64,000 nt of DNA from Nemertoderma westbladi (Eukaryota > Animalia > Xenacoelomorpha). Numbering within the stretch: position 1 is the stretch's first letter; the number at the start of each line of letters is the position of its first letter. Where the stretch lies: positions 21,400 through 85,399 of the forward strand of contig JAUCBJ010008015.1 of NCBI GenBank assembly GCA_032718475.1. The letters are read 5' to 3'. The notes beneath the pieces were generated by a model. The model worked only from the letters and a program-made list of their open reading frames with translations, ran no database searches and was not told the origin of the DNA. Of this stretch, positions 327 to 57,264 are shown in pieces. Position numbers and translations under genes: made by a program.

Positions 327-3300
327 ACTCTACCACGATAAACTTACTGTATCGGTAGGCGGTGTCCCGTCGTGTCTACTCTACTCTACCACGATATACT
401 TACTGTATCGGTAGGCGGTGTCTCGTCGTGTCTACTCTACTCTACCACGATATACTTACTGTATCGGTAGGCGGTGTCTCGTCGTGTCTACTCTACTCTA
501 CCACGATATACTTACTGTATCGGTAGGCGGTGTCCCGTCGTGTCTACTCTACTCTACCACGATATACTTACTGTATCGGTAGGCGGTGTCCCGTCGTGTC
601 TACTCTACTCTACCACGATATACTTACTGTATCGGTAGGCGGTGTCCCGTCGTGTCTACTCTACTCTACCACGATATACTTACTGTATCGGTAGGCGGTG
701 TCCCGTCGTGTCTACTCTACTCTACCACGATATACTTACTGTATCGGTAGGCGGTGTCCCGTCGTGTCTACTCTACTCTACCACGATATACTTACTGTAT
801 CGGTAGGCGGTGTCCCGTCGTGTCTACTCTACTCTACCACGATATACTTACTGTATCGGTAGGCGGTGTCTCGTCGTGTCTACTCTACTCTACCACGATA
901 TACTTACTGTATCGGTAGGCGGTGTCTCGTCGTGTCTACTCTACTCTACCACGATATACTTACTGTATCGGTAGGCGGTGTCCCGTCGTGTCTACTCTAC
1001 TCTACCACGATATACTTACTGTATCGGTAGGCGGTGTCCCGTCGTGTCTACTCTACTCTACCACGATATACTTACTGTATCGGTAGGCGGTGTCCCGTCG
1101 TGTCTACTCTACTCTACCACGATATACTTACTGTATCGGTAGGCGGTGTCCCGTCGTGTCTACTCTACTCTACCACGATATACTTACTGTATCGGTAGGC
1201 GGTGTCCCGTCGTGTCTACTCTACTCTACCACGATATACTTACTGTATCGGTAGGCGGTGTCTCGTCGTGTCTACTCTACTCTACCACGATATACTTACT
1301 GTATCGGTAGGCGGTGTCTCGTCGTGTCTACTCTACTCTACCACGATATACTTACTGTATCGGTAGGCGGTGTCCCGTCGTGTCTACTCTACTCTACCAC
1401 GATATACTTACTGTATCGGTAGGCGGTGTCTCGTCGTGTCTACTCTACTCTACCACGATATACTTACTGTATCGGTAGGCGGTGTCTCGTCGTGTCTACT
1501 CTACTCTACCACGATATACTTACTGTATCGGTAGGCGGTGTCTCGTCGTGTCTACTCTACTCTACCACGATATACTTACTGTATCGGTAGGCGGTGTCCC
1601 GTCGTGTCTACTCTACTCTACCACGATATACTTACTGTATCGGTAGGCGGTGTCTCGTCGTGTCTACTCTACTCTACCACGATATACTTACTGTATCGGT
1701 AGGCGGTGTCCCGTCGTGTCTACTCTACCACGATATACTTACTGTATCGGTAGGCGGTGTCCCGTCGTGTCTACTCTACTCTACCACGATATACTTACTG
1801 TATCGGTAGGCGGTGTCCCGTCGTGTCTACTCTACTCTACCACGATATACTTACTGTATCGGTAGGCGGTGTCTCGTCGTGTCTACTCTACCACGATATA
1901 CTTACTGTATCGGTAGGCGGTGTCCCGTCGTGTCTACTCTACTCTACCACGATAACTTACTGTACGGTAGGCGGTGTCCGTCGTGTCTACTCTACCACGA
2001 TATACTTACGTACGGTAGGCGGTGTCCCGTCGTGTCTACTCTACTCTACCACGATATACTTACTGTATCGGTAGGCGGTGTCCCGTCGTGTCTACTCTAC
2101 TCTACCACGATATACTTACTGTATCGGTAGGCGGTGTCCCGTCGTGTCTACTCTACTCTACCACGATATACTTACTGTATCGGTAGGCGGTGTCCCGTCG
2201 TGTCTACTCTACTCTACCACGATATACTTACTGTATCGGTAGGCGGTGTCTCGTCGTGTCTACTCTACTCTACCACGATATACTTACTGTATCGGTAGGC
2301 GGTGTCCCGTCGTGTCTACTCTACCACGATATACTTACTGTATCGGTAGGCGGTGTCCCGTCGTGCTCTACTCTACTCTACCACGATATACTTACTGTAT
2401 CGGTAGGCGGTGTCTCGTCGTGTCTACTCTACTCTACCACGATATACTTACTGTATCGGTAGGCGGTGTCCCGTCGTGTCTACTCTACTCTACCACGATA
2501 TACTTACTGTATCGGTAGGCGGTGTCTCGTCGTGTCTACTCTACCACCGATATACTTACTGTATCGGTAGGCGGTGTCCCGTCGTGTCTACTCTACTCTA
2601 CCACGATATACTTACTGTATCGGTAGGCGGTGTCTCGTCGTGTCTACTCTACTCTACCACGATATACTTACTGTATCGGTAGGCGGTGTCTCGTCGTGTC
2701 TACTCTACTCTACCACGATATACTTACTGTATCGGTAGGCGGCGTCTCGTCGTGTCTACTCTACTCTACCACGATATACTTACTGTATCGGTAGGCGGTG
2801 TCCCGTCGTGTCTACTCTACTCTACCACGATATACTTACTGTATCGGTAGGCGGTGTCTCGTCCTGTCTACTCTACTCTACCACGATATACTTACTGTAT
2901 CGGTAGGCGGTGTCCCGTCGTGTCTACTCTACTCTACCACGATATACTTACTGTATCGGTAGGCGGTGTCCCGTCGTGTCTACTCTACTCTACCACGATA
3001 TACTTACTGTATCAGTAGGCGGTGTCCCGTCGTGTCTACTCTACTCTACCACGATATACTTACTGTATCGGTAGGCGGTGTCCCGTCGTGTCTACTCTAC
3101 TCTACCACGATATACTTACTGTATCAGTAGGCGGTGTCCCGTCGTGTCTACTCTACTCTACCACGATATACTTACTGTATCGGTAGGCGGTGTCTCGTCG
3201 TGTCTACTCTACTCTACCACGATATACTTACTGTATCGGTAGGCGGTGTCCCGTCGTGTCTACTCTACTCTACCACGATATACTTACTGTATCGGTAGGC

Positions 3301-6300
3301 GGCGTCCCGTCGTGTCTACTCTACTCTACCACGATATACTTACTGTATCGGTAGGCGGTGTCCCGTCGTGTCTACTCTACCACGATATACTTACTGTATC
3401 GGTAGGCGGTGCCCCATCGTGTCTACTCTACTCTACCACGATATACTTACTGTATCGGTAGGCGGTGTCTCGTCGTGTCTACTCTACTCTACCACGATAT
3501 ACTTACTGTATCGGTAGGCGGTGTCCCGTCGTGTCTACTCTACTCTACCACGATATACTTACTGTATCGGTAGGCGGTGTCCCGTCGTGTCTACTCTACT
3601 CTACCACGATATACTTACTGTATCGGTAGGCGGTGTCTCGTCGTGTCTACTCTACTCTACCACGATATACTTACTGTATCGGTAGGCGGTGTCTCGTCGT
3701 GTCTACTCTACTCTACCACGATATACTTACTGTATCGGTAGGCGGTCTCCCGTCGTGTCTACTCTACTCTACCACGATATACTTACTGTATCGGTAGGCG
3801 GTGTCCCGTCGTCTCTACTCTACTCTACCATGATATACTTACTGTATCGGTAGGCGGTATCTCGTCGTGTCTACTCTACTCTACCACGATATACTTACTG
3901 TATCGGTAGGCGGTGTCCCGTCGTGTCTACTCTACCACGATATACTTACTGTATCGGTAGGCGGTGCCCCATCGTGTCTACTCTACTCTACCACGATATA
4001 CTTACTGTATCGGTAGGCGGTGTCTCGTCGTGTCTACTCTACTCTACCACGATATACTTACTGTATCGGTAGGCGGTGTCCCGTCGTGTCTACTCTACTC
4101 TACCACGATATACTTACTGTATCGGTAGGCGGTGTCTCGTCGTGTCTACTCTACCACGATATACTTACTGTATCGGTAGGCGGTGTCCCGTCGTGTCTAC
4201 TCTACTCTACCACGATATACTTACTGTACCGGTAGGTGGTGTCTCGTCGTGTCTACTCTACTCTACCACGATATACTTACTGTATCGGTAGGCGGTGTCC
4301 CGTCGTCTCTACTCTACTCTACCACGATATACTTACTGTATCGGTAGGCGGTATCTCGTCGTGTCTACTCTACTCTACCACGATATACTTACTGTATCGG
4401 TAGGCGGTGTCCCGTCGTGTCTACTCTACCACGATATACTTACTGTATCGGTAGGCGGTGCCCCATCGTGTCTACTCTACTCTACCACGATATACTTACT
4501 GTATCGGTAGGCGGTGTCTCGTCGTGTCTACTCTACTCTACCACGATATACTTACTGTATCGGTAGGCGGTGTCCCGTCGTGTCTACTCTACTCTACCAC
4601 GATATACTTACTGTATCGGTAGGCGGTGTCCCGTCGTGTCTACTCTACTCTACCACGATATACTTACTGTATCGGTAGGCGGTGTCTCGTCGTGTCTACT
4701 CTACTCTACCACGATATACTTACTGTATCGGTAGGCGGTGTCTCGTCGTGTCTACTCTACTCTACCACGATATACTTACTGTATCGGTAGGCGGTGTCTC
4801 GTCGTGTCTACTCTACTCTACCACGATATACTTACTGTATCGGTAGGCGGTGTCCCGTCGTGTCTACTCTACTCTACCACGATATACTTACTGTATCGGT
4901 AGGCGGTGTCCCGTCGTGTCTACTCTACTCTACCACGATATACTTACTGTATCGGTAGGCGGTGTCCCGTCGTGTCTACTCTACTCTACCACGATATACT
5001 TACTGTATCGGTAGGCGGTGTCTCGTCGTGTCTACTCTACTCTACCACGATATACTTACTGTATCGGTAGGCGGTGTCTCGTCGTGTCTACTCTACTCTC
5101 CACGATATACTTACTGTATCGGTAGGCGGTGTCCCGTCGTGTCTACTCTACTCTACCACGATATACTTACTGTATCGGTAGGCGGTGTCTCGTCGTGTCT
5201 ACTCTACTCTACCACGATATACTTACTGTATCGGTAGGCGGTGTCTCGTCGTGTCTACTCTACTCTACCACGATATACTTACTGTATCGGTAGGCGGTGT
5301 CCCGTCGTGTCTACTCTACTCTACCACGATATACTTACTGTATCGGTAGGCGGTGTCCCGTCGTGTCTACTCTACCACGATATACTTACTGTATCGGTAG
5401 GCGGTGTCTCGTCGTGTCTACTCTACTCTACCACGATATACTTACTGTATCGGTAGGCGGTGTCTCGTCGTGTCTACTCTACTCTACCACGATATACTTA
5501 CTGTATCGGTAGGCGGTGTCCCGTCGTGTCTACTCTACTCTACCACGATATACTTACTGTATCGGTAGGCGGTGTCTCGTCGTGTCTACTCTACTCTACC
5601 ACGATATACTTACTGTATCGGTAGGCGGTGTCCCGTCGTGTCTACTCTACTCTACCACGATATACTTACTGTATCGGTAGGCGGTGTCTCGTCGTGTCTA
5701 CTCTACTCTACCACGATATACTTACTGTATCGGTAGGCGGTGTCTCGTCGTGTCTACTCTACTCTACCACGATATACTTACTGTATCGGTAGGCGGTGTC
5801 CCGTCGTGTCTACTCTACTCTACCACGATATACTTACTGTATCGGTAGGCGGTGTCTCGTCGTGTCTACTCTACTCTACCACGATATACTTACTGTATCG
5901 GTAGGCGGTGTCTCGTCGTGTCTACTCTACTCTACCACGATATACTTACTGTATCGGTAGGCGGTGTCCCGTCGTGTCTACTCTACTCTACCACGATATA
6001 CTTACTGTATCGGTAGGCGGTGTCTCGTCGTGTCTACTCTACTCTACCACGATATACTTACTGTATCGGTAGGCGGTGTCTCGTCGTGTCTACTCTACTC
6101 TACCACGATATACTTACTGTATCGGTAGGCGGTGTCCCGTCGTGTCTACTCTACTCTACCACGATATACTTACTGTATCGGTAGGCGGTGTCCCGTCGTG
6201 TCTACTCTACTCTACCACGATATACTTACTGTATCGGTAGGCGGTGTCTCGTCGTGTCTACTCTACTCTACCACGATATACTTACTGTATCGGTAGGCGG

Positions 6301-9300
6301 TGTCTCGTCGTGTCTACTCTACTCTACCACGATATACTTACTGTATCGGTAGGCGGTGTCCCGTCGTGTCTACTCTACTCTACCACGATATACTTACTGT
6401 ATCGGTAGGCGGTGTCCCGTCGTGTCTACTCTACTCTACCACGATATACTTACTGTATCGGTAGGCGGTGTCTCGTCGTGTCTACTCTACTCTACCACGA
6501 TATACTTACTGTATCGGTAGGCGGTGTCCCGTCGTGTCTACTCTACTCTACCACGATATACTTACTGTATCGGTAGGCGGTGTCCCGTCGTGTCTACTCT
6601 ACTCTACCACGATATACTTACTGTATCGGTAGGCGGTGTCTCGTCGTGTCTACTCTACTCTACCACGATATACTTACTGTATCGGTAGGCGGTGTCCCGT
6701 CGTGTCTACTCTACTCTCCACGATATACTTACTGTATCGGTAGGCGGTGTCTCGTCGTGTCTCTACTCTACCACGATATACTTACTGTATCGGTAGGCGG
6801 TGTCTCGTCGTGTCTACTCTACTCTACCCGATATACTTACTGTATCGGTAGGCGGTGTCTCGTCGTGTCTACTCTACCACGATATACTTACTGTATCGGT
6901 AGGCGGTGTCTCGTCGTGTCTACTCTACTCTACCACGATATACTTACTGTATCGGTAGGCGGTGTCCCGTCGTGTCTACTCTACTCTACCACGATATACT
7001 TACTGTATCGGTAGGCGGTGTCCCGTCGTGTCTACTCTACTCTACCACGATATACTTACTGTATCGGTAGGCGGTGTCCCGTCGTGTCTACTCTACTCTA
7101 CCACGATATACTTACTGTATCGGTAGGCGGTGTCCCGTCGTGTCTACTCTACTCTACCACGATATACTTACTGTATCGGTAGGCGGTGTCCCGTCGTGTC
7201 TACTCTACTCTACCACGATATACTTACTGTATCGGTAGGCGGTGTCTCGTCGTGTCTACTCTACTCTACCACGATATACTTACTGTATCGGTAGGCGGTG
7301 TCCCGTCGTGTCTACTCTACTCTACCACGATATACTTACTGTATCGGTAGGCGGTGTCTCGTCGTGTCTACTCTACTCTACCACGATATACTTACTGTAT
7401 CGGTAGGCGGTGTCCCGTCGTGTCTACTCTACTCTACCACGATATACTTACTGTATCGGTAGGCGGTGTCCCGTCGTGTCTACTCTACTCTACCACGATA
7501 TACTTACTGTATCGGTAGGCGGTGTCTCGTCGTGTCTACTCTACTCTACCACGATATACTTACTGTATCGGTAGGCGGTGTCTCGTCGTGTCTACTCTAC
7601 TCTACCACGATATACTTACTGTATCGGTAGGCGGTGTCTCGTCGTGCTCTACTCTACCACGATATACTTACTGTATCGGTAGGCGGTGTCCCGTCGTGTC
7701 TACTCTACTCTACCACGATATACTTACTGTATCGGTAGGCGGTGTCTCGTCGTGTCTACTCTACTCTACCACGATATACTTACTGTATCGGTAGGCGGTG
7801 TCTCGTCGTGTCTACTCTACTCTACCACGATATACTTACTGTATCGGTAGGCGGTGTCCCGTCGTGTCTACTCTACTCTACCACGATATACTTACTGTAT
7901 CGGTAGGCGGTGTCTCGTCGTGTCTACTCTACTCTACCACGATATACTTACTGTATCGGTAGGCGGTGTCTCGTCGTGTCTACTCTACCACGATATACTT
8001 ACTGTATCGGTAGGCGGTGTCTCGTCGTGTCTACTCTACTCTACCACGATATACTTACTGTATCGGTAGGCGGTGTCTCGTCGTGTCTACTCTACCACGA
8101 TATACTTACTGTATCGGTAGGCGGTGTCTCGTCGTGTCTACTCTACTCTACCCGATATACTTACTGTATCGGTAGGCGGTGTCTCGTCGTGTCTACTCTA
8201 CTCTACCACGATATACTTACTGTATCGGTAGGCGGTGTCTCGTCGTGTCTACTCTACTCTACCACGATATACTTACTGTATCGGTAGGCGGTGTCCCGTC
8301 GTGTCTACTCTACTCTACCACGATATACTTACTGTATCGGTAGGCGGTGTCTCGTCGTGTCTACTCTACTCTACCACGATATACTTACTGTATCGGTAGG
8401 CGGTGTCCCGTCGTGTCTACTCTACTCTACCACGATATACTTACTGTATCGGTAGGCGGTGTCCCGTCGTGTCTACTCTACTCTACCACGATATACTTAC
8501 TGTATCGGTAGGCGGTGTCTCGTCGTGTCTACTCTACTCTACCACGATATACTTACTGTATCGGTAGGCGGTGTCCCGTCGTGTCTACTCTACTCTACCA
8601 CGATATACTTACTGTATCGGTAGGCGGTGTCTCGTCGTGTCTACTCTACTCTACCACGATATACTTACTGTATCGGTAGGCGGTGTCTCGTCGTGTCTAC
8701 TCTACTCTACCACGATATACTTACTGTATCGGTAGGCGGTGTCCCGTCGTGTCTACTCTACTCTACCACGATATACTTACTGTATCGGTAGGCGGTGTCC
8801 CGTCGTGTCTACTCTACTCTACCACGATATACTTACTGTATCGGTAGGCGGTGTCTCGTCGTGTCTACTCTACTCTACCACGATATACTTACTGTATCGG
8901 TAGGCGGTGTCTCGTCGTGTCTACTCTACTCTACCCGATATACTTACTGTATCGGTAGGCGGTGTCCCGTCGTGTCTACTCTACTCTACCACGATATACT
9001 TACTGTATCGGTAGGCGGTGTCCCGTCGTGTCTACTCTACTCTACCACGATATACTTACTGTATCGGTAGGCGGTGTCTCGTCGTGTCTACTCTACTCTA
9101 CCACGATATACTTACTGTATCGGTAGGCGGTGTCTCGTCGTGTCTACTCTACTCTACCACGATATACTTACTGTATCGGTAGGCGGTGTCTCGTCGTGTC
9201 TACTCTACTCTACCACGATATACTTACTGTATCGGTAGGCGGTGTCCCGTCGTGTCTCTCTACTCTACCACGATATACTTACTGTATCGGTAGGCGGTGT

Positions 9301-12300
9301 CCCGTCGTGTCTACTCTACTCTACCACGATATACTTACTGTATCGGTAGGCGGTGTCCCGTCGTGTCTACTCTACTCTACCACGATATACTTACTGTATC
9401 GGTAGGCGGTGTCCCGTCGTGTCTACTCTACTCTACCACGATATACTTACTGTATCGGTAGGCGGTGTCTCGTCGTGTCTACTCTACTCTACCACGATAT
9501 ACTTACTGTATCGGTAGGCGGTGTCCCGTCGTGTCTACTCTACCTCACGATATACTTACTGTATCGGTAGGCGGTGTCTCGTCGTGTCTACTCTACCCAC
9601 GATATACTTACTGTATCGGTAGGCGGTGTCTCGTCGTGTCTACTCTACTCTACCACGATATACTTACTGTATCGGTAGGCGGTGTCTCGTCGTGTCTACT
9701 CTACCACGATATACTTACTGTATCGGTAGGCGGTGTCTCGTCGTGTCTACTCTACTCTACCACGATATACTTACTGTATCGGTAGGCGGTGTCCCGTCGT
9801 GTCTACTCTACTCTACCACGATATACTTACTGTATCGGTAGGCGGTGTCCCGTCGTGTCTACTCTACTCTACCACGATATACTTACTGTATCGGTAGGCG
9901 GTGTCCCGTCGTGTCTACTCTACTCTACCACGATATACTTACTGTATCGGTAGGCGGTGTCCCGTCGTGTCTACTCTACTCTACCACGATATACTTACTG
10001 TATCGGTAGGCGGTGTCCCGTCGTGTCTACTCTACTCTACCACGATATACTTACTGTATCGGTAGGCGGTGTCTCGTCGTGTCTACTCTACTCTACCACG
10101 ATATACTTACTGTATCGGTAGGCGGTGTCCCGTCGTGTCTACTCTACTCTACCACGATATACTTACTGTATCGGTAGGCGGTGTCTCGTCGTGTCTACTC
10201 TACTCTACCACGATATACTTACTGTATCGGTAGGCGGTGTCCCGTCGTGTCTACTCTACTCTACCACGATATACTTACTGTATCGGTAGGCGGTGTCCCG
10301 TCGTGTCTACTCTACTCTACCACGATATACTTACTGTATCGGTAGGCGGTGTCCCGTCGTGTCTACTCTACCACGATATACTTACTGTATCGGTAGGCGG
10401 TGTCTCGTCGTGTCTACTCTACTCTACCACGATATACTTACTGTATCGGTAGGCGGTGTCTCGTCGTGTCTACTCTACTCTACCACGATATACTTACTGT
10501 ATCGGTAGGCGGTGTCCCGTCGTGTCTACTCTACTCTACCACGATATACTTACTGTATCGGTAGGCGGTGTCTCGTCGTGTCTACTCTACTCTACCACGA
10601 TATACTTACTGTATCGGTAGGCGGTGTCTCGTCGTGTCTACTCTACTCTACCACGATATACTTACTGTATCGGTAGGCGGTGTCCCGTCGTGTCTACTCT
10701 ACTCTACCACGATATACTTACTGTATCGGTAGGCGGTGTCTCGTCGTGTCTACTCTACTCTACCACGATATACTTACTGTATCGGTAGGCGGTGTCCCGT
10801 CGTGTCTACTCTACTCTACCCGATATACTTACTGTATCGGTAGGCGGTGTCTCGTCGTGTCTACTCTACTCTACCACGATATACTTACTGTATCGGTAGG
10901 CGGTGTCTCGTCGTGTCTACTCTACCACGATATACTTACTGTATCGGTAGGCGGTGTCTCGTCGTGTCTACTCTACCACGATATACTTACTGTATCGGTA
11001 GGCGGTGTCTCGTCGTGTCTACTCTACTCTACCACGATATACTTACTGTATCGGTAGGCGGTGTCTCGTCGTGTCTACTCTACCACGATATACTTACTGT
11101 ATCGGTAGGCGGTGTCCCGTCGTGTCTACTCTACTCTACCACGATATACTTACTGTATCGGTAGGCGGTGTCTCGTCGTGTCTACTCTACTCTACCACGA
11201 TATACTTACTGTATCGGTAGGCGGTGTCTCGTCGTGTCTACTCTACTCTACCACGATATACTTACTGTATCGGTAGGCGGTGTCCCGTCGTGTCTACTCT
11301 ACTCTACCACGATATACTTACTGTATCGGTAGGCGGTGTCTCGTCGTGTCTACTCTACTCTACCACGATATACTTACTGTATCGGTAGGCGGTGTCCCGT
11401 CGTGTCTACTCTACTCTACCACGATATACTTACTGTATCGGTAGGCGGTGTCCCGTCGTGTCTACTCTACTCTACCACGATATACTTACTGTATCGGTAG
11501 GCGGTGTCTCGTCGTGTCTACTCTACTCTACCACGATATACTTACTGTATCGGTAGGCGGTGTCCCGTCGTGTCTACTCTACTCTACCACGATATACTTA
11601 CTGTATCGGTAGGCGGTGTCCCGTCGTGTCTACTCTACTCTACCACGATATACTTACTGTATCGGTAGGCGGTGTCTCGTCGTGTCTACTCTACCACGAT
11701 ATACTTACTGTATCGGTAGGCGGTGTCTCGTCGTGTCTACTCTGCCACGATATACTTACTGTATCGGTAGGCGGTGTCCCGTCGTGTCTACTCTACTCTA
11801 CCACGATATACTTACTGTATCGGTAGGCGGTGTCTCGTCGTGTCTACTCTACTCTACCACGATATACTTACTGTATCGGTAGGCGGTGTCTCGTCGTGTC
11901 TACTCTACTCTACCACGATATACTTACTGTATCGGTAGGCGGTGTCCCGTCGTGTCTACTCTACTCTACCACGATATACTTACTGTATCGGTAGGCGGTG
12001 TCCCGTCGTGTCTACTCTACTCTACCACGATATACTTACTGTATCGGTAGGCGGTGTCCCGTCGTGTCTACTCTACTCTACCACGATATACTTACTGTAT
12101 CGGTAGGCGGTGTCTCGTCGTGTCTACTCTACTCTACCACGATATACTTACTGTATCGGTAGGCGGTGTCTCGTCGTGTCTACTCTACTCTACCACGATA
12201 TACTTACTGTATCGGTAGGCGGTGTCTCGTCGTGTCTACTCTACTCTACCACGATATACTTACTGTATCGGTAGGCGGTGTCTCGTCGTGTCTACTCTAC

Positions 12301-13682: not shown

Positions 13683-13848
13683 GCCAGTCTCCGACCTCAT
13701 TAAGGACATTTAGGACGGTATCCAAGGTTTCCTTACTGGCCGCCTCCGCTGGCTCCAATGAGCCCAAGTTTCCGTCGATTTTACCCAATAAGTTCTCCAC
13801 AACGGGAACTATTCCGCTACCGGCCTCCTCGGATACGAGATTACTTAA
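13648..13848 (-). CDS. Gene B exon, helical segment after HormR (probable start of GAIN domain of an adhesion GPCR)
   Basis: tttcag|LSNLVSEEAGSGIVPVVENLLGKIDGNLGSLEPAEAASKETLDTVLNVLNEVGDWQSRHDETPPTDT|gtaagt; 201 nt, phase 0-0, compatible with exon 14669-14909. Confidence 0.8.
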
Positions 13849-42864: not shown

Positions 42865-42940
42865 CTGAAATACAAAAAGAGAACATAGTAAATTATTCTT
42901 TAAGAATAGTGAACTAATTGTAGTTCATTAAACAATATTC

Positions 42941-44358: not shown

Positions 44359-44485
44359 CTGAGTCGAGATTAATATATTGAATAAATATTGTAACACGAC
44401 TGCCTCTTCAGTTACAGCAAAAACACCGATCACCCAAGAGACTCCGAAAACTGGAACAATAACGCATAAACTCCAAACGCCTCCC
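44359..44485 (-). CDS. Gene A exon, TM6 to start of TM7
   Basis: ttgtag|G GGVWSLCVIVPVFGVSWVIGVFAVTEEAVVLQYLFNILISTQ|gttagt; phase 2-0; P..G..W..G motif. Confidence 0.92.
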
Positions 44486-45220: not shown

Positions 45221-48200
45221 TCCAGGAGATAATTCAATGTAACTCACTTGATCTGTTCTATCCAGGAGATAATTCAATGTAACTCACTTGATCTGTTCTA
45301 TCCAGGAGATAATTCAATGTAACTCACTTGATCTGTTCTATCCAGGAGATAATTCAATGTAACTCACTTGATCTGTTCTATCCAGGAGATAATTCAATAT
45401 AACTCACTTGATCTGTTCTATCCAGGAGATAATGAAATGTAACTCACTTGATCTGTTCTATCCAGGAGATAATTCAATGTAACTCACTTGATCTGTTCTA
45501 TCCAGGAGATAATTCAATGTAACTCACTTGATCTGTTCTATCCAGGAGATAATTCAATGTAACTCACTTGATCTGTTCTATCCAGGAGATAATTCAATGT
45601 AACTCACTTGATCTGTTCTATCCAGGAGATAATTCAATGTAACTCACTTGATCTGTTCTATCCAGGAGATAATTCAATGTAACTCACTTGATCTGTTCTA
45701 TCCAGGAGATAATTCAATGTAACTCACTTGATCTGTTCTATCCAGGAGATAATTCAATGTAACTCACTTGATCTGTTCTATCCAGGAGATAATTCAATAT
45801 AACTCACTTGATCTGTTCTATCCAGGAGATAATTCAATGTAACTCACTTGATCTGTTCTATCCAGGAGATAATTCAATGTAACTCACTTGATCTGTTCTA
45901 TCCAGGAGATAATTCAATGTAACTCACTTGATCTGTTCTATCCAGGAGATAATTCAATGTAACTCACTTGATCTGTTCTATCCAGGAGATAATTCAATGT
46001 AACTCACTTGATCTGTTCTATCCAGGAGATAATTCAATGTAACTCACTTGATCTGTTCTATCCAGGAGATAATTCAATGTAACTCACTTGATCTGTTCTA
46101 TCCAGGAGATAATTCAATGTAACTCACTTGATTTGTTCTATCCAGGAGATAATTCAATGTAACTCACTTGATTTGTTCTATCCAGGAGATAATTCAATGT
46201 AACTCACTTGATCTGTTCTATCCAGGAGATAATTCAATGTAACTCACTTGATCTGTTCTATCCAGGAGATAATTCAATGTAACTCACTTGATCTGTTCAA
46301 TGTAACTCACTTGATCTGTTCTATCCAGGAGATAATTCAATGTAACTCACTTGATCTGTTCTATCCAGGAGATAATTCAATGTAACTCACTTGATCTGTT
46401 CTATCCAGGAGATAATTCAATGTAACTCACTTGATCTGTTCTATCCAGGAGATAATTCAATGTAACTCACTTGATCTGTTCTATCCAGGAGATAATTCAA
46501 TGTAACTCACTTGATCTGTTCTATCCAGGAGATAATTCAATATAACTCACTTGATCTGTTCTATCCAGGAGATAATTCAATGTAACTCACTTGATCTGTT
46601 CTATCCAGGAGATAATTCAATGTAACTCACTTGATCTGTTCTATCCAGGAGATAATTCAATGTAACTCACTTGATCTGTTCTATCCAGGAGATAATTCAA
46701 TGTAACTCACTTGATCTGTTCTATCCAGGAGATAATTCAATGTAACTCACTTGATCTGTTCTATCCAGGAGATAATTCAATGTAACTCACTTGATCTGTT
46801 CTATCCAGGAGATAATTCAATGTAACTCACTTGATCTGTTCTATCCAGGAGATAATTCAATGTAACTCACTTGATTTGTTCTATCCAGGAGATAATTCAA
46901 TGTAACTCACTTGATCTGTTCTATCCAGGAGATAATTCAATGTAACTCACTTGATCTGTTCTATCCAGGAGATAATTCAATGTAACTCACTTGATCTGTT
47001 CAATGTAACTCACTTGATCTGTTCAATGTAACTCACTTGATCTGTTCTATCCAGGAGATAATTCAATGTAACTCACTTGATCTGTTCTATCCAGGAGATA
47101 ATTCAATGTAACTCACTTGATCTGTTCTATCCAGGAGATAATTCAATGTAACTCACTTGATTTGTTCTATCCAGGAGATAATTCAATGTAACTCACTTGA
47201 TCCGTTCTATCCAGGAGATAATTCAATGTAACTCACTTGATCTGTTCAATGTAACTCACTTGATCTGTTCTATCCAGGAGATAATTCAATGTAACTCACT
47301 TGATCTGTTCTATCCAGGAGATAATTCAATGTAACTCACTTGATTTGTTCTATCCAGGAGATAATTCAATGTAACTCACTTGATCTGTTCTATCCAGGAG
47401 ATAATTCAATGTAACTCACTTGATCTGTTCAATGTAACTCACTTGATCTGTTCAATGTAACTCACTTGATCTGTTCAATGTAACTCACTTGATCTGTTCA
47501 ATGTAACTCACTTGATCTGTTCAATGTAACTCACTTGATCTGTTCAATGTAACTCATTTGATCTGTTCTATCCAGGAGATAATTCAATGTAACTCACTTG
47601 ATCTGTTCTATCCAGGAGATAATTCAATGTAACTCACTTGATCTGTTCTATCCAGGAGATAATTCAATGTAACTCACTTGATCTGTTCTATCCAGGAGAT
47701 AATTCAATGTAACTCACTTGATCTGTTCTATCCAGGAGATAATTCAATGTAACTCACTTGATCTGTTCTATCGATAATTCAATGTAACTCACTTGATCTG
47801 TTCAATGTAACTCACTTGATCTGTTCTATCCAGGAGATAATTCAATGTAACTCACTTGATCTGTTCAATGTAACTCACTTGATCTGTTCAATGTAACTCA
47901 CTTGATCTGTTCTATCCAGGAGATAATTCAATGTAACTCACTTGATCTGTTCTATCCAGGAGATAATTCAATGTAACTCACTTGATCTGTTCTATCCAGG
48001 AGATAATTCAATGTAACTCACTTGATCTGTTCTATCCAGGAGATAATTCAATGTAACTCACTTGATCTGTTCTATCCAGGAGATAATTCAATGTAACTCA
48101 CTTGATCTGTTCTATCCAGGAGATAATTCAATGTAACTCACTTGATCTGTTCTATCCAGGAGATAATTCAATGTAACTCACTTGATCTGTTCTATCGATA

Positions 48201-49005
48201 ATTCAATGTAACTCACTTGATCTGTTCAATGTAACTCACTTGATCTGTTCTATCCAGGAGATAATTCAATGTAACTCACTTGATCTGTTCTATCCAGGAG
48301 ATAATTCAATGTAACTCACTTGATCTGTTCAATGTAACTCACTTGATCTGTTCAATGTAACTCACTTGATCTGTTCTATCCAGGAGATAATTCAATGTAA
48401 CTCACTTAATCTGTTCTATCCAGGAGATAATTCAATGTAACTCACTTGATCTGTTCTATCCAGGAGATAATTCAATGTAACTCACTTGATCTGTTCTATC
48501 CAGGAGATAATTCAATGTAACTCACTTGATCTGTTCTATCCAGGAGATAATTCAATGTAACTCACTTGATCTGTTCTATCCAGGAAATAATTCAATGTAA
48601 CTCACTTGATCTGTTCTATCCAGGAGATAATTCAATGTAACTCACTTGATCTGTTCAATGTAACTCACTTGATCTGTTCAATGTAACTCACTTGATCTGT
48701 TCAATGTAACTCACTTGATCTGTTCAATGTAACTCACTTGATCTGTTCTATCCAGGAGATAATTCAATGTAACTCACTTGATCTGTTCTATCCAGGAGAT
48801 AATTCAATGTAACTCACTTGATCTGTTCTATCCAGGAGATAATTCAATGTAACTCACTTGATCTGTTCTATCCAGGAGATAATTCAATGTAACTCACTTG
48901 ATCTGTTCAATGTAACTCACTTGATCTGTTCAATGTAACTCACTTGATCTGTTCAATGTAACTCACTTGATCTGTTCAATGTAACTCACTTGATCTGTTC
49001 TATCT
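45221..49005 (-). repeat. 40-bp tandem array with 23-bp variants (~100 copies) of the TM5 exon end plus donor
   Basis: Minus-strand unit GATAGAACAGATCAA|GTGAGTTACATTGAATTATCTCCTG; the outermost copy is the real exon end ..SEIEQIK|gtgagt. Confidence 0.95.
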
Positions 49006-49142
49006 CCGATTTTTTATTAAAAGCCGAGCTTTTAAACATAGTTCTGAGTACAATAACAATAACCACCATGTTAGCCACGGCTATAGCTAATGCGGGGCCT
49101 ATGAAGGCATACAAAACACCAACGGAAGGATCTAACCAGCAT
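48990..49142 (-). CDS. Gene A exon, ECL2 Cys-Trp and TM5
   Basis: ttccag|A CWLDPSVGVLYAFIGPALAIAVANMVVIVIVLRTMFKSSAFNKKSEIEQI AA|gtgagt; CWL and F.GP..N motifs; phase 2-2. Not in the ORF track. Confidence 0.92.
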
Positions 49143-49159
49143 CTGGAAAGGAATCATAA

Positions 49160-49905
49160 AGTATAAAATAAAGTAAATAAAACCTACTGTTGGGGTAAAT
49201 AAAGTAGAAAATAAACTAAACAAAACCATCTGTTGAGGTATATAAAGTAGAAAATAAACTAAACTAAACCTAATGTTGAGGTATATAAAGTAGAAAATAA
49301 ACTAAACTAAACCTAATGTTGAGGTATATAAAGTATAAAATAAACTAAACCTAATGTTGAGGTATATAAAGTAGAAAATAAACTAAACTGAACCTACTGT
49401 TGAGGTATATAAAGTAGAAAATAAACTAAACTAAACCTAATGTTGAGGTATATAAAGTATAAAATAAACTAAACCTAATGTTGAGGTATATAAAGTAGAA
49501 AATAAACTAAACTGAACCTACTGTTGAGGTATATAAAGTAGAAAATAAACTAAACTAAACCTAATGTTGAGGTATATAAAGTAGAAAATAAACTAAACTA
49601 AACCTAATGTTGAGGTATATAAATAAAGTAGAAAATAAACAAAACTAAACCTACTGTTGAGGTATATAAAGTAGAAAATAAACTAAACTAAACCATCTGT
49701 TGAGGTATATAAAGTAGAAAATAAACTAAACTAAACCTACTGTTGAGGTATATAAAGTAGAAAATAAACTAAACTAAACCTACTGTTGAGGTATATAAAG
49801 TAGAAAATAAACTAAACTAAACCTAATGTTGAGGTATATAAAGTAGAAAATAAACTAAACTAAACCTACTGTTGAGGTATATAAAGTAGAAATGAAACTA
49901 AACCT
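49160..49905 (-). repeat. 43/38-bp tandem array (~17 copies) abutting the TM5 acceptor
   Basis: Minus-strand unit AGTTTAGTTTATTTTCTACTTTATATACCTCAACA(G/T)..GGTTT. Confidence 0.88.
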
Positions 49906-50097: not shown

Positions 50098-50339
50098 ATA
50101 ACATCTCCCCCTGGCCGTTCGTACGAGTATCCATTGAGTTGGCTGGCACCAGCCGAAATACCAACTACCAATAACGGCGCACCCCAACCGATACCTAAAT
50201 AAATCCATTTCCAGGAAACCTCCCGTTCAAATATAACGACTACGTTGAGATAATAGAGAATTCCTTCATTCAACATCCAAGTGAATACGGAGAGGAAGAA
50301 ATAATGTAGAAGGACTGCTACAGCAGTGCAACCAGAATC
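50098..50339 (-). CDS. Gene A exon, TM3-TM4 of an adhesion GPCR
   Basis: ttacag|DSGCTAVAVLLHYFFLSVFTWMLNEGILYY...YLGIGWGAPLLVVGISAG...GGDV AT|gtaagt; C..A.LLHYF.L..F.WM..EG and GWG.P signatures; phase 0-2. Confidence 0.95.
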
Positions 50340-53300
50340 CTGTAAGGAATAAAGTAGAACTGTTACAGAAGTACAACCAGAATCCTGTAAGGAATAAAGT
50401 AGAACTGTTACAGCAGTACAACCAGAATCCTGTAAGGAATAAAGTAGAACTGTTACAGAAGGGCAACCAGAATCCTGTAAGGAATAAAGTAGAACTGTTA
50501 AGTGCAACCAGAATCCTGTAAGGAATAAAGTAGAACTGTTACAGAAGGGCAACCAGAATCCTGTAAGGAATAAAGTAGAACTGTTACAGAAGTACAACCA
50601 GAATCCTGTAAGGAATAAAGTATAACTGCTACAGCAGTACAACCAGAATCCTGTAAGGAATAAAGTAGAACTGCTACAGCAGTGCAACCAGAATCCTGTA
50701 AGGAATAAAGTATAACTGTTACAGAAGGTCAACCAGAATCCTGTAAGGAATAAAGTATAACTGCTACAGCAGTACAACCAGAATCCTGTAAGGAATAAAG
50801 TAGAACTGTTACAGAAGTACAACCAGAATCCTGTAAGGAATAAAGTAGAACTGTTACAGAAGGGCAACCAGAATCATGTAAGGAATAAAGTAGAACTGTT
50901 ACAGAAGGGCAACCAGAATCCTGTAAGGAATAAAGTAGAACTGTTACAGCAGTACAACCAGAATCCTGTAAGGAATAAAGTAGAACTGCTACAGCAGTAC
51001 AACCAGAATCCTGTAAGGAATAAAGTAGAACTGTTACAGCAGTACAACCAGAATCCTGTAAGGAATAGAGTAGAACCGTTACAGAAGGGCAACCATAATC
51101 CTGTAAGGAATAAAGTAGAACTGCTACAGCAGTGCAACCAGAATCCTGTAAGGAATAAAGTAGAACTGTTACAGCAGTACAACCAGAATCCTGTAAGGAA
51201 TAAAGTAGAACTGTTACAGCAGTACAACCAGAATCCTGTAAGGAATAGAGTAGAACCGTTACAGAAGGGCAACCATAATCCTGTAAGGAATAAAGTAGAA
51301 CTGCTACAGCAGTGCAACCAGAATCCTGTAAGGAATAAAGTAGAACTGTTACAGAAGTACAACCAGAATCCTGTAAGGAATAAAGTAGAACTGTTACAGC
51401 AGTACAACCAGAATCCTGTAAGGAATAGAGTAGAACCGTTACAGAAGGGCAACCATAATCCTGTAAGGAATAAAGTAGAACTGCTACAGCAGTGCAACCA
51501 GAATCCTGTAAGGAATAAAGTAGAACTGTTACAGCAGTACAACCAGAATCCTGTAAGGAATAAAGTAGAACTGCTACAGCAGTACAACCAGAATCCTGTA
51601 AGGAATAAAGTAGAACTGCTACAGCAGTGCAACCAGAATCCTGTAAGGAATAGAGTAGAACCGTTACAGAAGGGCAACCATAATCCTGTAAGGAATAAAG
51701 TAGAACTGCTACAGCAGTGCAACCAGAATCCTGTAAGGAATAAAGTAGAACTGTTACAGAAGTACAACCAGAATCCTGTAAGGAATAAAGTAGAACTGTT
51801 ACAGCAGTACAACCAGAATCCTGTAAGGAATAAAGTAGAACTGCTACAGCAGTACAACCAGAATCCTGTAAGGAATAAAGTAGAACTGCTACAGCAGTGC
51901 AACCAGAATCCTGTAAGGAATAAAGTAGAACTGTTACAGAAGTACAACCAGAATCCTGTAAGGAATAAAGTAGAACTGTTACAGAAGTACAACCAGAATC
52001 CTGTAAGGAATAAAGTATAACTGCTACAGCAGTACAACCAGAATCCTGTAAGGAATAAAGTAGAACTGCTACAGCAGTGCAACCAGAATCCTGTAAGGAA
52101 TAAAGTATAACTGTTACAGAAGGTCAACCAGAATCCTGTAAGGAATAAAGTATAACTGCTACAGCAGTACAACCAGAATCCTGTAAGGAATAAAGTAGAA
52201 CTGTTACAGAAGTACAACCAGAATCCTGTAAGGAATAAAGTAGAACTGTTACAGAAGGGCAACCAGAATCATGTAAGGAATAAAGTAGAACTGTTACAGA
52301 AGGGCAACCAGAATCCTGTAAGGAATAAAGTAGAACTGTTACAGCAGTACAACCAGAATCCTGTAAGGAATAAAGTAGAACTGCTACAGCAGTACAACCA
52401 GAATCCTGTAAGGAATAAAGTAGAACTGTTACAGCAGTACAACCAGAATCCTGTAAGGAATAGAGTAGAACCGTTACAGAAGGGCAACCATAATCCTGTA
52501 AGGAATAAAGTAGAACTGCTACAGCAGTGCAACCAGAATCCTGTAAGGAATAAAGTAGAACTGTTACAGCAGTGCAACCAGAATCCTGTAAGGAATAAAG
52601 TAGAACTGTTACAGAAGTACAACCAGAATCCTGTAAGGAATAGAGTAGAACCGTTACAGAAGGGCAACCATAATCCTGTAAGGAATAAAGTAGAACTGCT
52701 ACAGCAGTGCAACCAGAATCCTGTAAGGAATAAAGTAGAACTGTTACAGAAGGGCAACTAGAAACCTGTAAGGAATAAAGTAGAACTGTTACAGCAGTGC
52801 AACCAGAATACTGTAAAGAATAAAGTAGAACTGTTACAGCAGTACAACCAGAATCCTGTAAGGAATAAAGTATAACTGTTACAGAAGGGCAACCAGAATC
52901 CTGTAAGGAATAAAGTAGAACTGTTACAGAAGTACAACCAGAATCCTGTAAGGAATAAAGTAGAACTGTTACAGAAGGGCAACCAGAATCCTGTAAGGAA
53001 TAAAGTAGAACTGTTACAGAAGGGCAACCAGAATCCTGTAAGGAATAAAGTAGAACTGTCACAGAAGGGCAACCAGAATCCTGTAAGGAATAAAGTATAA
53101 CTGCTACAGCAGTGCAACCAGAATCCTGTAAGGAATAAAGTAGAACTGTTACAGAAGGGCAACCAGAATCCTGTAAGGAATAAAGTATAACTGTTACAGA
53201 AGGGCAACCAGAATCCTGTAAGGAATAAAGTAGAACTTTTACAGCAGTACAACCAGAATCCTGTAAGGAATAAAGTAGAACTGTTACAGCAGTGCAACCA

Positions 53301-56300
53301 GAATCCTGTAAGGAATAAAGTAGAACTGTTACAGAAGGGCAACCAGAATCCTGTAAGGAATAAAGTAGAACTTTTACAGCAGTACAACCAGAATCCTGTA
53401 AGGAATAAAGTAGAACTGTTACAGCAGTGCAACCAGAATCCTGTAAGGAATAAAGTATAACTGTTACAGAAGGGCAACCAGAATCCTGTAAGGAATAAAG
53501 TAGAACTGTTACAGAAGTACAACCAGAATCCTGTAAGGAATAAAGTAGAACTGTTACAGAAGGGCAACCAGAATCCTGTAAGGAATAAAGTAGAACTTTT
53601 ACAGCAGTACAACCAGAATCCTGTAAGGAATAAAGTAGAACTGTTACAGCAGTGCAACCAGAATCCTGTAAGGAATAAAGTAGAACTGCTACAGCAGTGC
53701 AACCAGAATCCTGTAAAGAATAAAGTATAACTGTTACAGAAGGGCAACCAGAATCCTGTAAGGAATAAAGTAGAATTGTTACAGAAGGGCAACCAGAATC
53801 CTGTAAGGAATAAAGTATAACTGCTACAGCAGTGCAACCAGAATCCTGTAAGGAATAAAGTAGAACTGTTACAGAAGGGCAACCAGAATCCTGTAAGGAA
53901 TAAAGTAGAACTGTTACAGAAGGGCAACCAGAATCCTGTAAGGAATAAAGTAGAACTGTTACAGAAGGTCAACCAGAATCCTGTAAGGAATAAAGTATAA
54001 CTGCTACAGCAGTGCAACCAGAATCCTGTAAGGAATAAAGTAGAACTGTTACAGAAGGGCAACCAGAATCCTGTAAGGAATAAAGTAGAACTGTTACAGA
54101 AGGGCAACCAGAATCCCGTAAGGGATAAAGTAGAACTGTTACAGCAGTGCAACCAGAATCCTGTAAGGAATAAAGTAGAACTGTTACAGAAGGGCAACCA
54201 GAATCCTGTAAGGAATAAAGTATAACTGTTACAGAAGGGCAACCAGAATCCTGTAAGGAATAAAGTAGAACTTTTACAGCAGTACAACCAGAATCCTGTA
54301 AGGAATAAAGTAGAACTGTTACAGCAGTGCAACCAGAATCCTGTAAGGAATAAAGTAGAACTGTTACGTTACAGAAGGGCAACCAGAATCCTGTAAGGAA
54401 TAAAGTAGAACTTTTACAGCAGTACAACCAGAATCCTGTAAGGAATAAAGTAGAACTGTTACAGCAGTGCAACCAGAATCCTGTAAAGAATAAAGTAGAA
54501 CTGTTACGTTACAGAAGGGCAACCAGAATCCTGTAAGGAATAAAGTAGAACTTTTACAGCAGTACAACCAGAATCCTGTAAGGAATAAAGTAGAACTGTT
54601 ACAGCAGTGCAACCAGAATCCTGTAAGGAATAAAGTAGAACTGTTACAGAAGGGCAACCAGAATCCTGTAAGAAATAAAGTAGAACTGTTACAGAAGGGC
54701 GACTAGAATCCTGTAAGGAATAAAGTAGAACTGTTACAGAAGGGCAACCAGAATCCTGTAAGAAATAAAGTAGAACTGTTACAGAAGGGCGACTAGAATC
54801 CTGTAAGGAATAAAGTATAACTGCTACAGCAGTACAACCAGAATCCTGTAAGGAATAAAGTAGAACTGCTACAGCAGTGCAACCAGAATCCTGTAAAGAA
54901 TAAAGTATAACTGTTACAGAAGGGCAACCAGAATCCTGTAAGGAATAAAGTAGAACTGCTACAGCAGTGCAACCAGAATCCTGTAAAGAATAAAGTATAA
55001 CTGTTACAGAAGGGCAACCAGAATCCTGTAAAGAATAAAGTATAACTGTTACAGAAGGTCAACCAGAATCCTGTAAGGAATAAAGTAGAACTTTTACAGC
55101 AGTACAACCAGAATCCTGTAAGGAATAAAGTAGAACTGTTACAGAAGGGCAACCAGAATCCTGTAAGGAAAAAAGTAGAACTGTTACAGAAGGGCAACCA
55201 GAATCCTGTAAGGAATAAAGTAGAACTGTTACAGCAGTACAACCAGAATCCTGTAAGGAATAAAGTAGAACTGTTACAGAAGGGCAACCAGAATCCTGTA
55301 AGGAATAAAGTAGAACTGTTACAGCAGTACAACCAGAATCCTGTAAGGAATAAAGTAGAACTGCTACAGCAGTGCAACCAGAATCCTGTAAAGAATAAAG
55401 TAGAACTGTTACGTTACAGAAGGGCAACCAGAATCCTGTAAGGAATAAAGTAGAACTGTTACAGAAGTACAACCAGAATCCTGTAAGGAATAAAGTAGAA
55501 CTGTTACAGAAGTACAACCAGAATCCTGTAAGGAATAAAGTAGAACTGTTACAGCAGTGCAACCAGAATCCTGTAAGGAATAAAGTAGAACTGTTACAGC
55601 AGTGCAACCAGAATCCTGTAAGGAATAAAGTAGAACTGTTACAGAAGGGCAACCAGAATCCTGTAAGGAATAAAATAGAATTGTTACAGAAGTACAACCA
55701 GAATCCTGTAAGGAATAAAGTAGAACTGTTACAGCAGTGCAACCAGAATCCTGTAAGGAATAAAGTAGAACTGTTACAGCAGTGCAACCAGAATCCTGTA
55801 AGGAATAAAGTAGAACTGTTACAGCAGTACAACCAGAATCCTGTAAGGAATAAAGTAGAACTGCTACAGAAGGGCAACCAGAATCCTGTAAGGAATAAAG
55901 TAGAACTGTTACAGCAGTGCAACCAGAATCCTGTAAGGAATAAAATATAATTGTTACAGAAGGGCAACCAGAATCCTGTAAGGAATAAAGTAGAACTGTT
56001 ACAGAAGGGCAACCAGAATCCTGTAAGGAATAAAGTAGAACTGTTACAGAAGGGCAACCAGAATCCTGTAAGGAATAAAGTAGAACTGTTACAGAAGGGC
56101 AACCAGAATCCTGTAAGGAATAAAGTAGAACTGTTACAGCAGTGCAACCAGATTCCTGTAAGGAATAAAGTAGAACTGTTACAGAAGGTCAACCAGAATC
56201 CTGTAAGGAATAAAGTAGAACTGTTACAAAAGGGCAACCAGAATCCTGTAAGGAATAAAGTAGAACTGTTACAGAAGGGCAACCAGAATCCTGTAAGGAA

Positions 56301-57264
56301 TAAAGTAGAACTATTACAGAAGGGCAACCAGAATCCTGTAAGGAATAAAGTAGAACTGTTACAGAAGGGCAACCAGAATCCTGTAAGGAATAAAGTAGAA
56401 CTGTTACAGCAGTACAACCAGAATCCTGTAAGGAATAAAGTAGAACTGCTACAGAAGGGCAACCAAAATCCTGTAAGGAATAAAGTAGAACTGTTACAGC
56501 AGTGCAACCAGAATCCTGTAAGGAATAAAATAGAATTGTTACAGAAGGGCAACCAGAATCCTATAAGGAATAAAGTAGAACTGTTACAGAAGTACAACCA
56601 GAATCATGTAAGGAATAAAGTAGAACTGTTACAGAAGGGCAACCAGAATCCTGTAAGGAATAAAGTAGAACTGCTACAGCAGTGCAACCAGAATCCTGTA
56701 AGGAATAAAGTAGAACTGGTACAGCAGTGCAACCAGAATCCTGTAAGGAATAATGTAGAACTGTTACAGAAGGGCAACCAGAATCCTGTAAGGAATACAG
56801 TAGAACTGCTACAGAAGGGCAACCAGAATCCTGTAAGGAATAAAGTAGAACTATTACAGCAGTACAACCAAAATCCTGTAAGGAATAAAGTAGAACTGTT
56901 ACAGCAGTACAACCAGAATCCTGTAAGGAATAAAGTAGAACTGTTACAGCAGTGCAACCAGAATCCTGTAAGGAATAAAGTAGAACTGTTACAGAAGGGC
57001 AACCAGAATCCTGTAAGGAATAAAGTAGAACTGTTACAGCAGTACAACCAGAATCCTGTAAGGAATAAAGTAGAACTGTTACAGAAGGGCAGCCAGAATC
57101 CTGTAAGGAATAAAGTAGAACTGTTACAGAAGTACAACCAGAATCCTGTAAGGAATAAAGTAGAACTGTTACAGAAGGGCAGCCAGAATCCTGTAAGGAA
57201 TAAAGTAGAACTGTTACAGAAGTACAACCAGAATCCTGTAAGGAATAAAGTAGAACTGTTACAG
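50315..57264 (-). repeat. 45-bp tandem array (~154 copies) of the 3' splice acceptor plus TM3 exon start
   Basis: Minus-strand unit TTCTACTTTATTCCTTACAG|GATTCTGGTTGCACTGCTGTAACAG; the innermost copy is the real acceptor at 50340. Confidence 0.95.

What the first reader, a model, noticed from the sequence alone, without database searches (positions are those of the whole stretch)
327..57264. Locus-wide amplification of exon-intron junctions into 'splice-site satellites'
Seen: four unrelated satellites (56, 49, 40, 45 bp), plus probably a fifth (43 bp), each straddle a splice junction of one of two adhesion GPCR genes. Three are donor arrays running downstream and one or two are acceptor arrays running upstream, together several hundred extra splice sites over ~26 kb. 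The authentic exons remain open and phase-compatible at the array edges. Known: tandem duplication is a proposed route to intron gain and expansion, but I do not recall recurrent kb-scale junction arrays being described. Inference: so many junction-centred arrays among ~13 exons is unlikely by chance. It suggests a junction-targeted, possibly transcription- or splicing-coupled amplification process, or a regulatory use of decoy sites, and implies strict selection of the exon-proximal site.
Basis: partly seen in the sequence, partly recalled or inferred. Interest (0 to 1): 0.9.

Follow-up and report, generated by a model that had tools for sequence, protein, structure and literature searches.

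The report
Giant splice-junction "mirage" minisatellites, two genes
Four exon edges in two neighbouring receptor-type genes have been copied head-to-tail 38 to 241 times with their splice signals; this is a repeat type already named "mirage" in lancelets, far longer here than the published cases read, and likely tolerated rather than regulatory, since at the one array with RNA data the transcript uses only the first copy.

Summary
Four arrays (56, 49, 40/23, 45 bp; 25.9 kb) straddle splice junctions of two minus-strand genes and add about 530 spare splice sites. The 43-mer only abuts an acceptor. The 11 modelled exons join into open frames. In one run with spliced contigs, the gene B transcript leaves the genome exactly at the first of 241 donors, and unit-to-unit joints occur in DNA runs of two samples, so the 56-mer is not an assembly error. 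Four of 7 long arrays sit on junctions (in-window P 1e-5 to 1e-3, not corrected for how the window was chosen). This is a known kind: lancelet 'mirages' and human junction minisatellites (F7, CBS). This scan's notes report it in other genomes too (unchecked). What stands out is scale: up to 241 copies, against at most about 25 in the cases read. A regulatory role is unsupported: the next donor of each array gives an early stop, and splice cores are no better conserved than the rest of the unit. Best reading: short-homology-seeded duplications expanded by ordinary minisatellite turnover and tolerated by exon-proximal site choice. Why they favour exon edges is open. Acceptor choice and gene A expression are untested.

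The parts
327..13682 (-). 56-bp donor array of gene B (35 nt exon end + 21 nt intron start; 51-bp variant common); 241 donor motifs including the real one at 13648|13647
   Evidence: unit-to-unit joints in DNA runs X2, X3 and first-donor use in X4
13648..13848 (-). Gene B exon 5 of the model (helical segment after HRM; GAIN start inferred); its end is unit 1 of the 56-mer
   Evidence: covered exactly by spliced X4 record 25
14669..14909 (-). Gene B exon, HRM-like domain
   Evidence: Pfam HRM E 0.0017, below cut-off; relatives are HRM proteins; both flanking introns seen as RNA joints, 820 and 1965 nt
16875..17125 (-). Gene B exon (second Ig-like segment, inferred from sequence; no Pfam hit)
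   Evidence: X4 record 31
21169..21291 (-). Gene B exon (modelled)
   Evidence: open and phase-compatible; no RNA test
21401..21678 (-). Gene B exon, Ig domain; upstream exons not resolved
   Evidence: Pfam Ig_3 E 2.7e-6, just below cut-off
34180..34712 (-). Gene A terminal coding exon (cytoplasmic tail, with a 39-bp coding repeat)
40175..40442 (-). Gene A tail exon (modelled)
40929..42782 (-). 49-bp donor array of gene A (35 nt exon + 14 nt intron); 38 donors; the exon copy differs from the array consensus at 7 of 35 positions
42748..42864 (-). Gene A TM7 exon; its end is unit 1 of the 49-mer
44359..44485 (-). Gene A TM6 exon
   Evidence: Pfam 7tm_2 E 7.7e-6
45221..49004 (-). 40-bp donor array of gene A (13 nt exon + 27 nt intron) with 23-bp sub-units; 104 donors
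48990..49142 (-). Gene A TM5 exon; its end is unit 1 of the 40-mer
   Evidence: Pfam 7tm_2 E 6.9e-6
49156..49903 (-). 43-bp array abutting acceptor 49142 (contains its pyrimidine tract, ends 13 bp short); possibly an old diverged acceptor array
50098..50339 (-). Gene A TM3-TM4 exon; its start is the last unit of the 45-mer
   Evidence: Pfam 7tm_2 E 2.3e-19; ADGRD1 hits
50314..57264 (-). 45-bp acceptor array of gene A (19 nt intron end + 26 nt exon start); about 149 YAG acceptors; far end cut by an LTR-like element

Best explanation
These are junction-spanning ('mirage') minisatellites: each unit is a copy of an exon edge with its splice signal, likely seeded by slippage or end-joining between short direct repeats flanking the junction, likely grown by ordinary minisatellite turnover, and likely tolerated because the spliceosome keeps to the exon-proximal site. 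Steps: (1) shown: unit = exon edge + splice signal at four junctions; (2) inferred: seed duplication at short homology (5, 2 and 3 bp at the 51-, 40- and 23-bp junctions; 14 of 19 nt imperfect at the 45-mer); (3) inferred from length variants, repeated blocks of variants and a diverged end copy: expansion and homogenisation by slippage and unequal exchange; (4) shown for the 56-mer only, in one run's contigs: first donor used; inferred for the rest from the reading frame and from F7; (5) inferred: rare use of a spare donor would give an early stop and be cleared by nonsense-mediated decay, so selection against the arrays is weak. The excess at exon edges is most likely a birth bias, cause not established.
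For: Anatomy. Real DNA: back-joints of 56 and 51 bp in runs X3 and X2, two samples. First-donor use: X4 record 25 (2027 nt) matches 13648-13848 and not 13600-13647, with joints of 820 and 1965 nt at the predicted introns. Microhomology: 5, 2, 3 bp against chance 0.009, 0.19, 0.07; 45-mer 14 of 19 nt, 0 of 2236 exon windows, shuffle p 0.003. Turnover: 51/56 and 23/40 length variants, recurring variant blocks, 49-mer exon copy 7 of 35 positions from the consensus while units are 97% alike. Neutral look: variant alleles 23/81 intron-derived against 49/109 exon-derived positions (p 0.07), splice cores 4/21 (p 0.19). Same properties reported for lancelet mirages (PMC3087553 passages) and F7 (PMC1557585).
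Against: Does not by itself explain why 4 of 7 long arrays sit on junctions. Two of the microhomologies (2 and 3 bp) are within chance, the 49-mer seed cannot be resolved, and two acceptors without arrays reach 13 of 19 somewhere in their exon's first 80 nt. The intron-derived part trends towards fewer variants (p 0.07), and no donor core is altered in the 56- and 49-mers. RNA evidence is one run, contigs only, one array; minor isoforms would be dropped. How a downstream-most acceptor wins over about 148 upstream copies is not tested.
Confidence: 0.72

Rival explanations
1. Junction-targeted birth: transcription or co-transcriptional splicing makes exon edges prone to breaks or slippage (R-loops, polymerase pausing, nucleosome edges), so seeds form there far more often than elsewhere. 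This is compatible with the best explanation and would supply its missing cause.
For: 4 of 7 arrays on junctions and a fifth abutting one, P 1.4e-5 to 1.3e-3. Both donors and acceptors, both genes. Lancelet papers report mirages at several loci and say the mechanism is unclear (PMC3087553). Scan notes describe the same clustering in other genomes (unchecked).
Against: No direct evidence for any transcription link. Two long non-junction arrays (15-mer 2.6 kb, 33-mer 0.8 kb) show that this genome makes long minisatellites anyway. No genome-wide test was possible.
Confidence: 0.3
2. Chance plus survival and ascertainment: arrays arise anywhere, those inside exons are purged, intronic ones are eroded by deletions and insertions, those anchored to an exon persist, and this window was picked because it is extreme.
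For: The window is one of a very large scan, so P of 1e-5 to 1e-3 can be met by selection alone. Intron sequence here turns over fast (many differences between samples; several mobile elements).
Against: The null already excludes wholly exonic seeds and, in its strictest form, all DNA over 500 bp from an exon, and still gives 1.3e-3. Recurrence in lancelets and in scan notes argues for a general bias.
Confidence: 0.22
3. Regulatory decoys: the arrays tune output by binding U1/U2AF or by diverting transcripts into decay; the three in-frame acceptors add 15, 30 or 45 residues before TM3.
For: All 241 and 38 donor cores intact in the 56- and 49-mers. The 45-bp unit is frame-preserving, with acceptors at 50384, 50429 and 50474 in frame and open. 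Most 49-mer copies have G at -1 where the real donor has T.
Against: Core conservation is not above background (p 0.19). Exon-derived positions of the 45-mer carry common amino-acid-changing variants. X4 shows only the first donor at the 56-mer. Lancelet mirages gave no aberrant mRNA (PMC3087553, PMC3902484).
Confidence: 0.07
4. Assembly artefact or pseudogenes.
For: Single-base indels are scattered in the 56-mer. True copy number is not confirmed: array-bin depth differs about 100-fold between X1 and X3 of one sample. Gene A has no RNA evidence here.
Against: Unit-to-unit joints in two samples; structured variants that a polishing error would not give; gene B is spliced; gene A is open over 479 codons and aligns to ADGRD1 across TM3-TM7.
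Confidence: 0.04

Closest known systems
Lancelet 'mirage' minisatellites (Adh3, globins BflGb6 and BflGb9, troponin C, PGBD5); passages read in PMC3087553 and PMC3902484; the original Adh3 paper (PMC117041) was not held
   Same: Tandem units spanning an exon-intron boundary with AG/GT signals; both 5' and 3' boundaries; unit size within the Adh3 range of 10-72 bp; homogenised inner units with an excluded end copy; normal splicing retained.
   Different: Scale: 38-241 copies and 1.9-13.4 kb here, against 2-7 copies in the globin and PGBD5 passages read (Adh3 copy numbers not seen). Four arrays at 21 junctions in two neighbouring genes. The organism is not identified.
Human donor-spanning minisatellites: F7 IVS7 (37 bp), CBS IVS13, 6-16, LMNB2, PDGF; abstract, introduction and passages read in PMC1557585
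   Same: First unit spans the exon-intron boundary; identical pseudo-donors follow; the most upstream donor is used (F7, LMNB2, PDGF), as at the 56-mer.
   Different: 5 to about 25 copies, one array per gene as described, donor side only; in CBS and 6-16 two further sites are also used, which contigs here could not have shown at low level.
Variable internal tandem repeats at exon-intron boundaries in human segmental duplications (PMC2812944, passages read)
   Same: Tandem repeats at exon-intron boundaries that can alter gene structure.
   Different: There the repeats create new introns and alternative transcripts; here no new intron is seen, the arrays lengthen existing introns.

Membership tests
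Mirage minisatellite | Head-to-tail unit contains both exon-derived and intron-derived sequence across a real junction | tested here: met
   56-, 49-, 40-, 45-mers; junction shown by RNA for the 56-mer, by frame and homology for the others
Mirage minisatellite | Copies keep GT or AG splice signals | tested here: met
   241, 38, 104 donors; 149 of 153 units end in YAG
Mirage minisatellite | Normal splicing at the authentic site is retained | tested here: inconclusive
   Met for the 56-mer in one run's contigs; no RNA data for the three gene A arrays
Mirage minisatellite | Concerted evolution with the boundary copy excluded | tested here: met
   49-mer: exon copy 7 of 35 positions from the consensus, last intron copy also diverged, units 97% alike; weak in the near-identical 56- and 40-mers
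Mirage minisatellite | Length instability between alleles or cells | not testable with these tools
   Contig depth is no copy number and differed about 100-fold within one sample
Mirage minisatellite (43-mer only) | Unit spans the real junction | tested here: inconclusive
   Ends 13 bp before the acceptor; 2 of 16 units resemble the acceptor and exon start
Adhesion GPCR (gene A) | Secretin-type 7TM (PF00002) closest to adhesion receptors | tested here: met
Adhesion GPCR (gene A) | GAIN/GPS domain before TM1 | not testable with these tools
   Upstream exons lie outside the window; no genome held
Adhesion GPCR (gene B) | GAIN/GPS and 7TM after the Ig and HRM domains | tested here: inconclusive
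   Ig and HRM seen; exon 13648-13848 has no Pfam hit and only E 0.19 to ADGRD1; X4 record 25 carries 1771 further letters that I could not read

The most novel reading that the evidence does not exclude
In this animal lineage exon edges of transcribed genes are true hotspots of tandem amplification, through a transcription- or splicing-coupled lesion, and the resulting kilobase arrays are a major, unrecognised driver of intron length; the spliceosome picks one exon-proximal site out of about 240 identical donors or about 150 identical acceptors (with the working branch point lying inside an array unit), giving the strongest natural test yet of exon definition.
Probability: 0.25. Interest if true: 0.7.

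Novelty: new member of a known kind. Interest (0 to 1): 0.36.

Why it matters
The kind is known, but the published cases I read are small and their origin is called unclear. This locus has four arrays at 21 junctions and is about ten times larger in copy number, so it is a clean test bed for two open questions: whether tandem duplications are born preferentially at exon edges, and how splice-site choice works with hundreds of identical competitors, above all on the acceptor side, where upstream copies are transcribed first. Practically, such arrays mislead gene prediction (the 45-mer gives open frames of several hundred codons) and read mapping.

Tried and rejected
No whole genome is held, so no genome-wide permutation was run. 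The run search listed no RNA holder; run X4 proved to hold spliced contigs only when laid. No read data were obtained for gene A, so site choice at the 45-, 40- and 49-mers is open. Contig depth on the 56-mer bin (9802, 36876, 89 against about 10-40 on unique DNA) was rejected as a copy-number measure because X1 and X3 of one sample disagree about 100-fold. The '0 of 20,000' similarity test at the 45-mer was rejected as partly circular and replaced. The idea that the 15-mer and 33-mer arrays are carried by transposons was tested by looking for inverted ends and shared flanks and not supported, so they stay in the denominator. Selection to preserve decoy cores: not detected. Homologue searches did not name the lineage: 3 mammalian ADGRD1 hits of 390 candidates, 47 unnamed HRM-like hits of which I scanned 12, 10 with HRM and none with 7tm_2. 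Paper searches for a genome-wide survey of junction-spanning arrays and for minisatellite origin at flanking repeats found none; the library lacks most subscription papers. Look-ups for earlier notes on this genome or look-alike DNA were blank.

Full report
Observation. Tandem Repeats Finder lists seven arrays of at least 300 bp and period at least 10 in 327-57264: 56 bp (327-13682), 15 bp (18033-20664), 49 bp (40929-42782), 33 bp (42934-43735), 40 bp (45221-49004), 43 bp (49156-49903) and 45 bp (50314-57264). The 56-, 49-, 40- and 45-mers total 25,945 bp. Read on the minus strand, each of these four units is an exon edge plus a splice signal. Donor motifs number 241, 38 and 104 including the real ones; 149 of 153 complete 45-bp units end in YAG. 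That is about 528 spare sites. The 43-mer stops 13 bp before acceptor 49142 and contains its pyrimidine tract; 2 of 16 units also resemble the acceptor and exon start (p 0.003-0.007 each, best of 10 unit types), the other 14 do not. The 15-mer and 33-mer touch no junction (504 and 69 bp from the nearest modelled exon).

Genes. Gene A has six exons in the window (50339-50098, 49142-48990, 44485-44359, 42864-42748, 40442-40175, 34712-34180) that join to 479 open codons and a stop. Three of the six hit Pfam 7tm_2, and the spliced model aligns to mammalian ADGRD1 at 42.6% over 195 columns. Gene B has five modelled exons (21678-21401, 21291-21169, 17125-16875, 14909-14669, 13848-13648), open over 364 codons, with an Ig hit and a weak HRM hit, both under Pfam's cut-off. 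Of 47 relatives of the HRM exon I scanned 12; 10 carry HRM and none 7tm_2. Gene B is therefore an adhesion GPCR by architecture only. The organism was not identified.

Real DNA, and spliced. Six runs of one organism were listed, none on record as RNA; I laid four of them on 13600-17300. X3 and X2 (two samples) show joints that go back 56 and 51 bases, the two main unit lengths, so tandem copies exist outside this assembly; X1 shows high depth there but no listed joint. Depth is not a copy number: X1 and X3 of one sample differ about 100-fold. X4 covers the exons but not most intron bins and shows joints skipping 820 and 1965 bases, exactly the predicted introns; X1-X3 do not show these joints. 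Its record 25 (2027 letters) matches 13648-13848 and does not continue into 13647-13600, although that stretch was offered. So the main transcript leaves at the first of 241 donors. This is one run and contigs only; minor forms would be missed. No reads were obtained for gene A, so site choice at its three arrays is inferred from frame alone.

More than chance? With arrays collapsed to one unit, wholly exonic seeds excluded and 21 junctions, 4 or more of 7 on a junction has P = 1.4e-5 (whole span), 1.7e-4 (modelled gene spans), 7e-4 (minus mobile-element frames) and 1.3e-3 (only DNA within 500 bp of an exon). These values are not corrected for the window having been chosen for this feature, and no genome is held for a wider test. 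The direction of the arrays is forced: a duplication across a donor must extend into the downstream intron, one across an acceptor into the upstream intron.

How they likely arose. Where both ends survive, the seed can be read. The 51-bp form of the 56-mer has a 5-bp direct repeat at its ends (chance 0.009), and the 56-bp form carries one further copy of that 5-mer; the 40- and 23-bp units have 2 and 3 bp (chance 0.19 and 0.07). At the 45-mer the 19-nt intron end matches the exon just past the unit at 14 of 19 positions (0 of 2236 exon windows, shuffle p 0.003), though two array-free acceptors reach 13 of 19 somewhere in their first 80 exon bases, and the original upstream intron is hidden by an LTR-like end at 57265. 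The 49-mer seed is too diverged to read. That minisatellites start at short flanking repeats is recalled, not from a call (search 49 found nothing). Later growth looks like ordinary turnover: length variants, recurring blocks of variant units in the 45-mer, and in the 49-mer an exon copy 7 of 35 positions from a 97%-identical array.

Function of the spare sites. Reading on past the first donor meets a stop after 5, 6 and 0 added codons in the 56-, 49- and 40-mers, so the next donor of each array gives an early stop. Of 148 acceptors scored in the 45-mer, 24 are in frame and only 4 are in frame and open: the real one and the next three, which would add 15, 30 or 45 residues; a 41-bp unit shifts the frame beyond them. 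Distinct variant alleles number 23 in 81 intron-derived and 49 in 109 exon-derived positions (p 0.07; 0.10 without CpG), and 4 in 21 splice-core positions (p 0.19): no detectable selection to keep decoys, with a trend that I cannot exclude. The only branch-point-like TNAY motif within 45 nt of acceptor 50339 has its A at -24, inside the adjoining array unit; that the array supplies the working branch point is an inference.

What is known. The scan's own notes pointed me to the term 'mirage', which I then checked. PMC3087553 (abstract and passages) describes minisatellite-like duplications of intron-exon boundaries in lancelet globin and Adh3 genes, on both 5' and 3' sides, with units of 10-160 bp, 3-6 copies in BflGb6, concerted evolution that excludes the ends, normal splicing, and an unclear mechanism. 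PMC3902484 (passages) adds PGBD5 (2-7 copies) and troponin C. PMC1557585 (abstract, introduction, passages) lists human F7, CBS, 6-16, LMNB2 and PDGF with 5 to about 25 copies and shows that the most upstream donor wins even against stronger downstream copies. PMC2812944 (passages) covers boundary repeats that create introns. PMC10078293 and PMC12783039 (passages) did not bear on junction-spanning units. The original Adh3 paper was not held, so its copy numbers were not seen. My searches found no genome-wide survey and no kilobase-scale case, within a library that lacks most subscription papers; no supplements were read.

Verdict. A real, dense and unusually large example of a known repeat kind. 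Its claim of an undescribed phenomenon is not right, and a regulatory role has no support. The cause of the bias towards exon edges remains open here as in the lancelet papers. Interest 0.36.

Noticed in passing
window 24846-30655 (minus): Apparently intact Ty3/Gypsy-type element: 1584-codon frame with RT, RNase H and integrase between two identical 175-bp ends, so likely a very recent insertion; it sits between two plus-strand frames (23490-24863, 30607-31092) that look like halves of a LINE (recalled likeness; no Pfam hit for the first).
   Followed up: partly
window 57265-64000 (plus): LTR retrotransposon with a TG...CA end at 57265-57809 and a DUF1759 gag plus protease (Bel/Pao label recalled). 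It cuts the far end of the 45-mer, which may continue beyond the window.
   Followed up: partly
window 35976-38162 (plus): LINE-type reverse transcriptase frame of 728 codons inside the last intron of gene A.
   Followed up: partly
window 42934-43735: 33-bp intronic array ending 69 bp upstream of acceptor 42864; on the sense strand it has no YAG at all and carries branch-point-like CTAAC motifs in each unit.
   Followed up: no
window 18033-20664 and 39158-39199: 15-bp array of 175 copies in a gene B intron, not at a junction; a short 15-bp repeat at 39158 lies next to a copy of the high-copy element also found at 14253-14338.
   Followed up: partly
window 14220-14343 and 16204-16327: Short elements with summed contig depth of 1e5 to 1e6 in DNA runs: very high-copy dispersed repeats.
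   Followed up: no
window 28-251 and 35461-35678: Two 91% identical copies of a SINE-like element (label recalled); one begins about 75 bp beyond the end of the 56-mer.
   Followed up: no
window 34404-34545: 39-bp coding repeat (13 residues, 3.6 copies) in the cytoplasmic tail exon of gene A.
   Followed up: no
window 13600-17300: Many substitutions and small indels in introns between the window and samples S1 and S2, few in exons: a highly polymorphic species or distinct populations.
   Followed up: no
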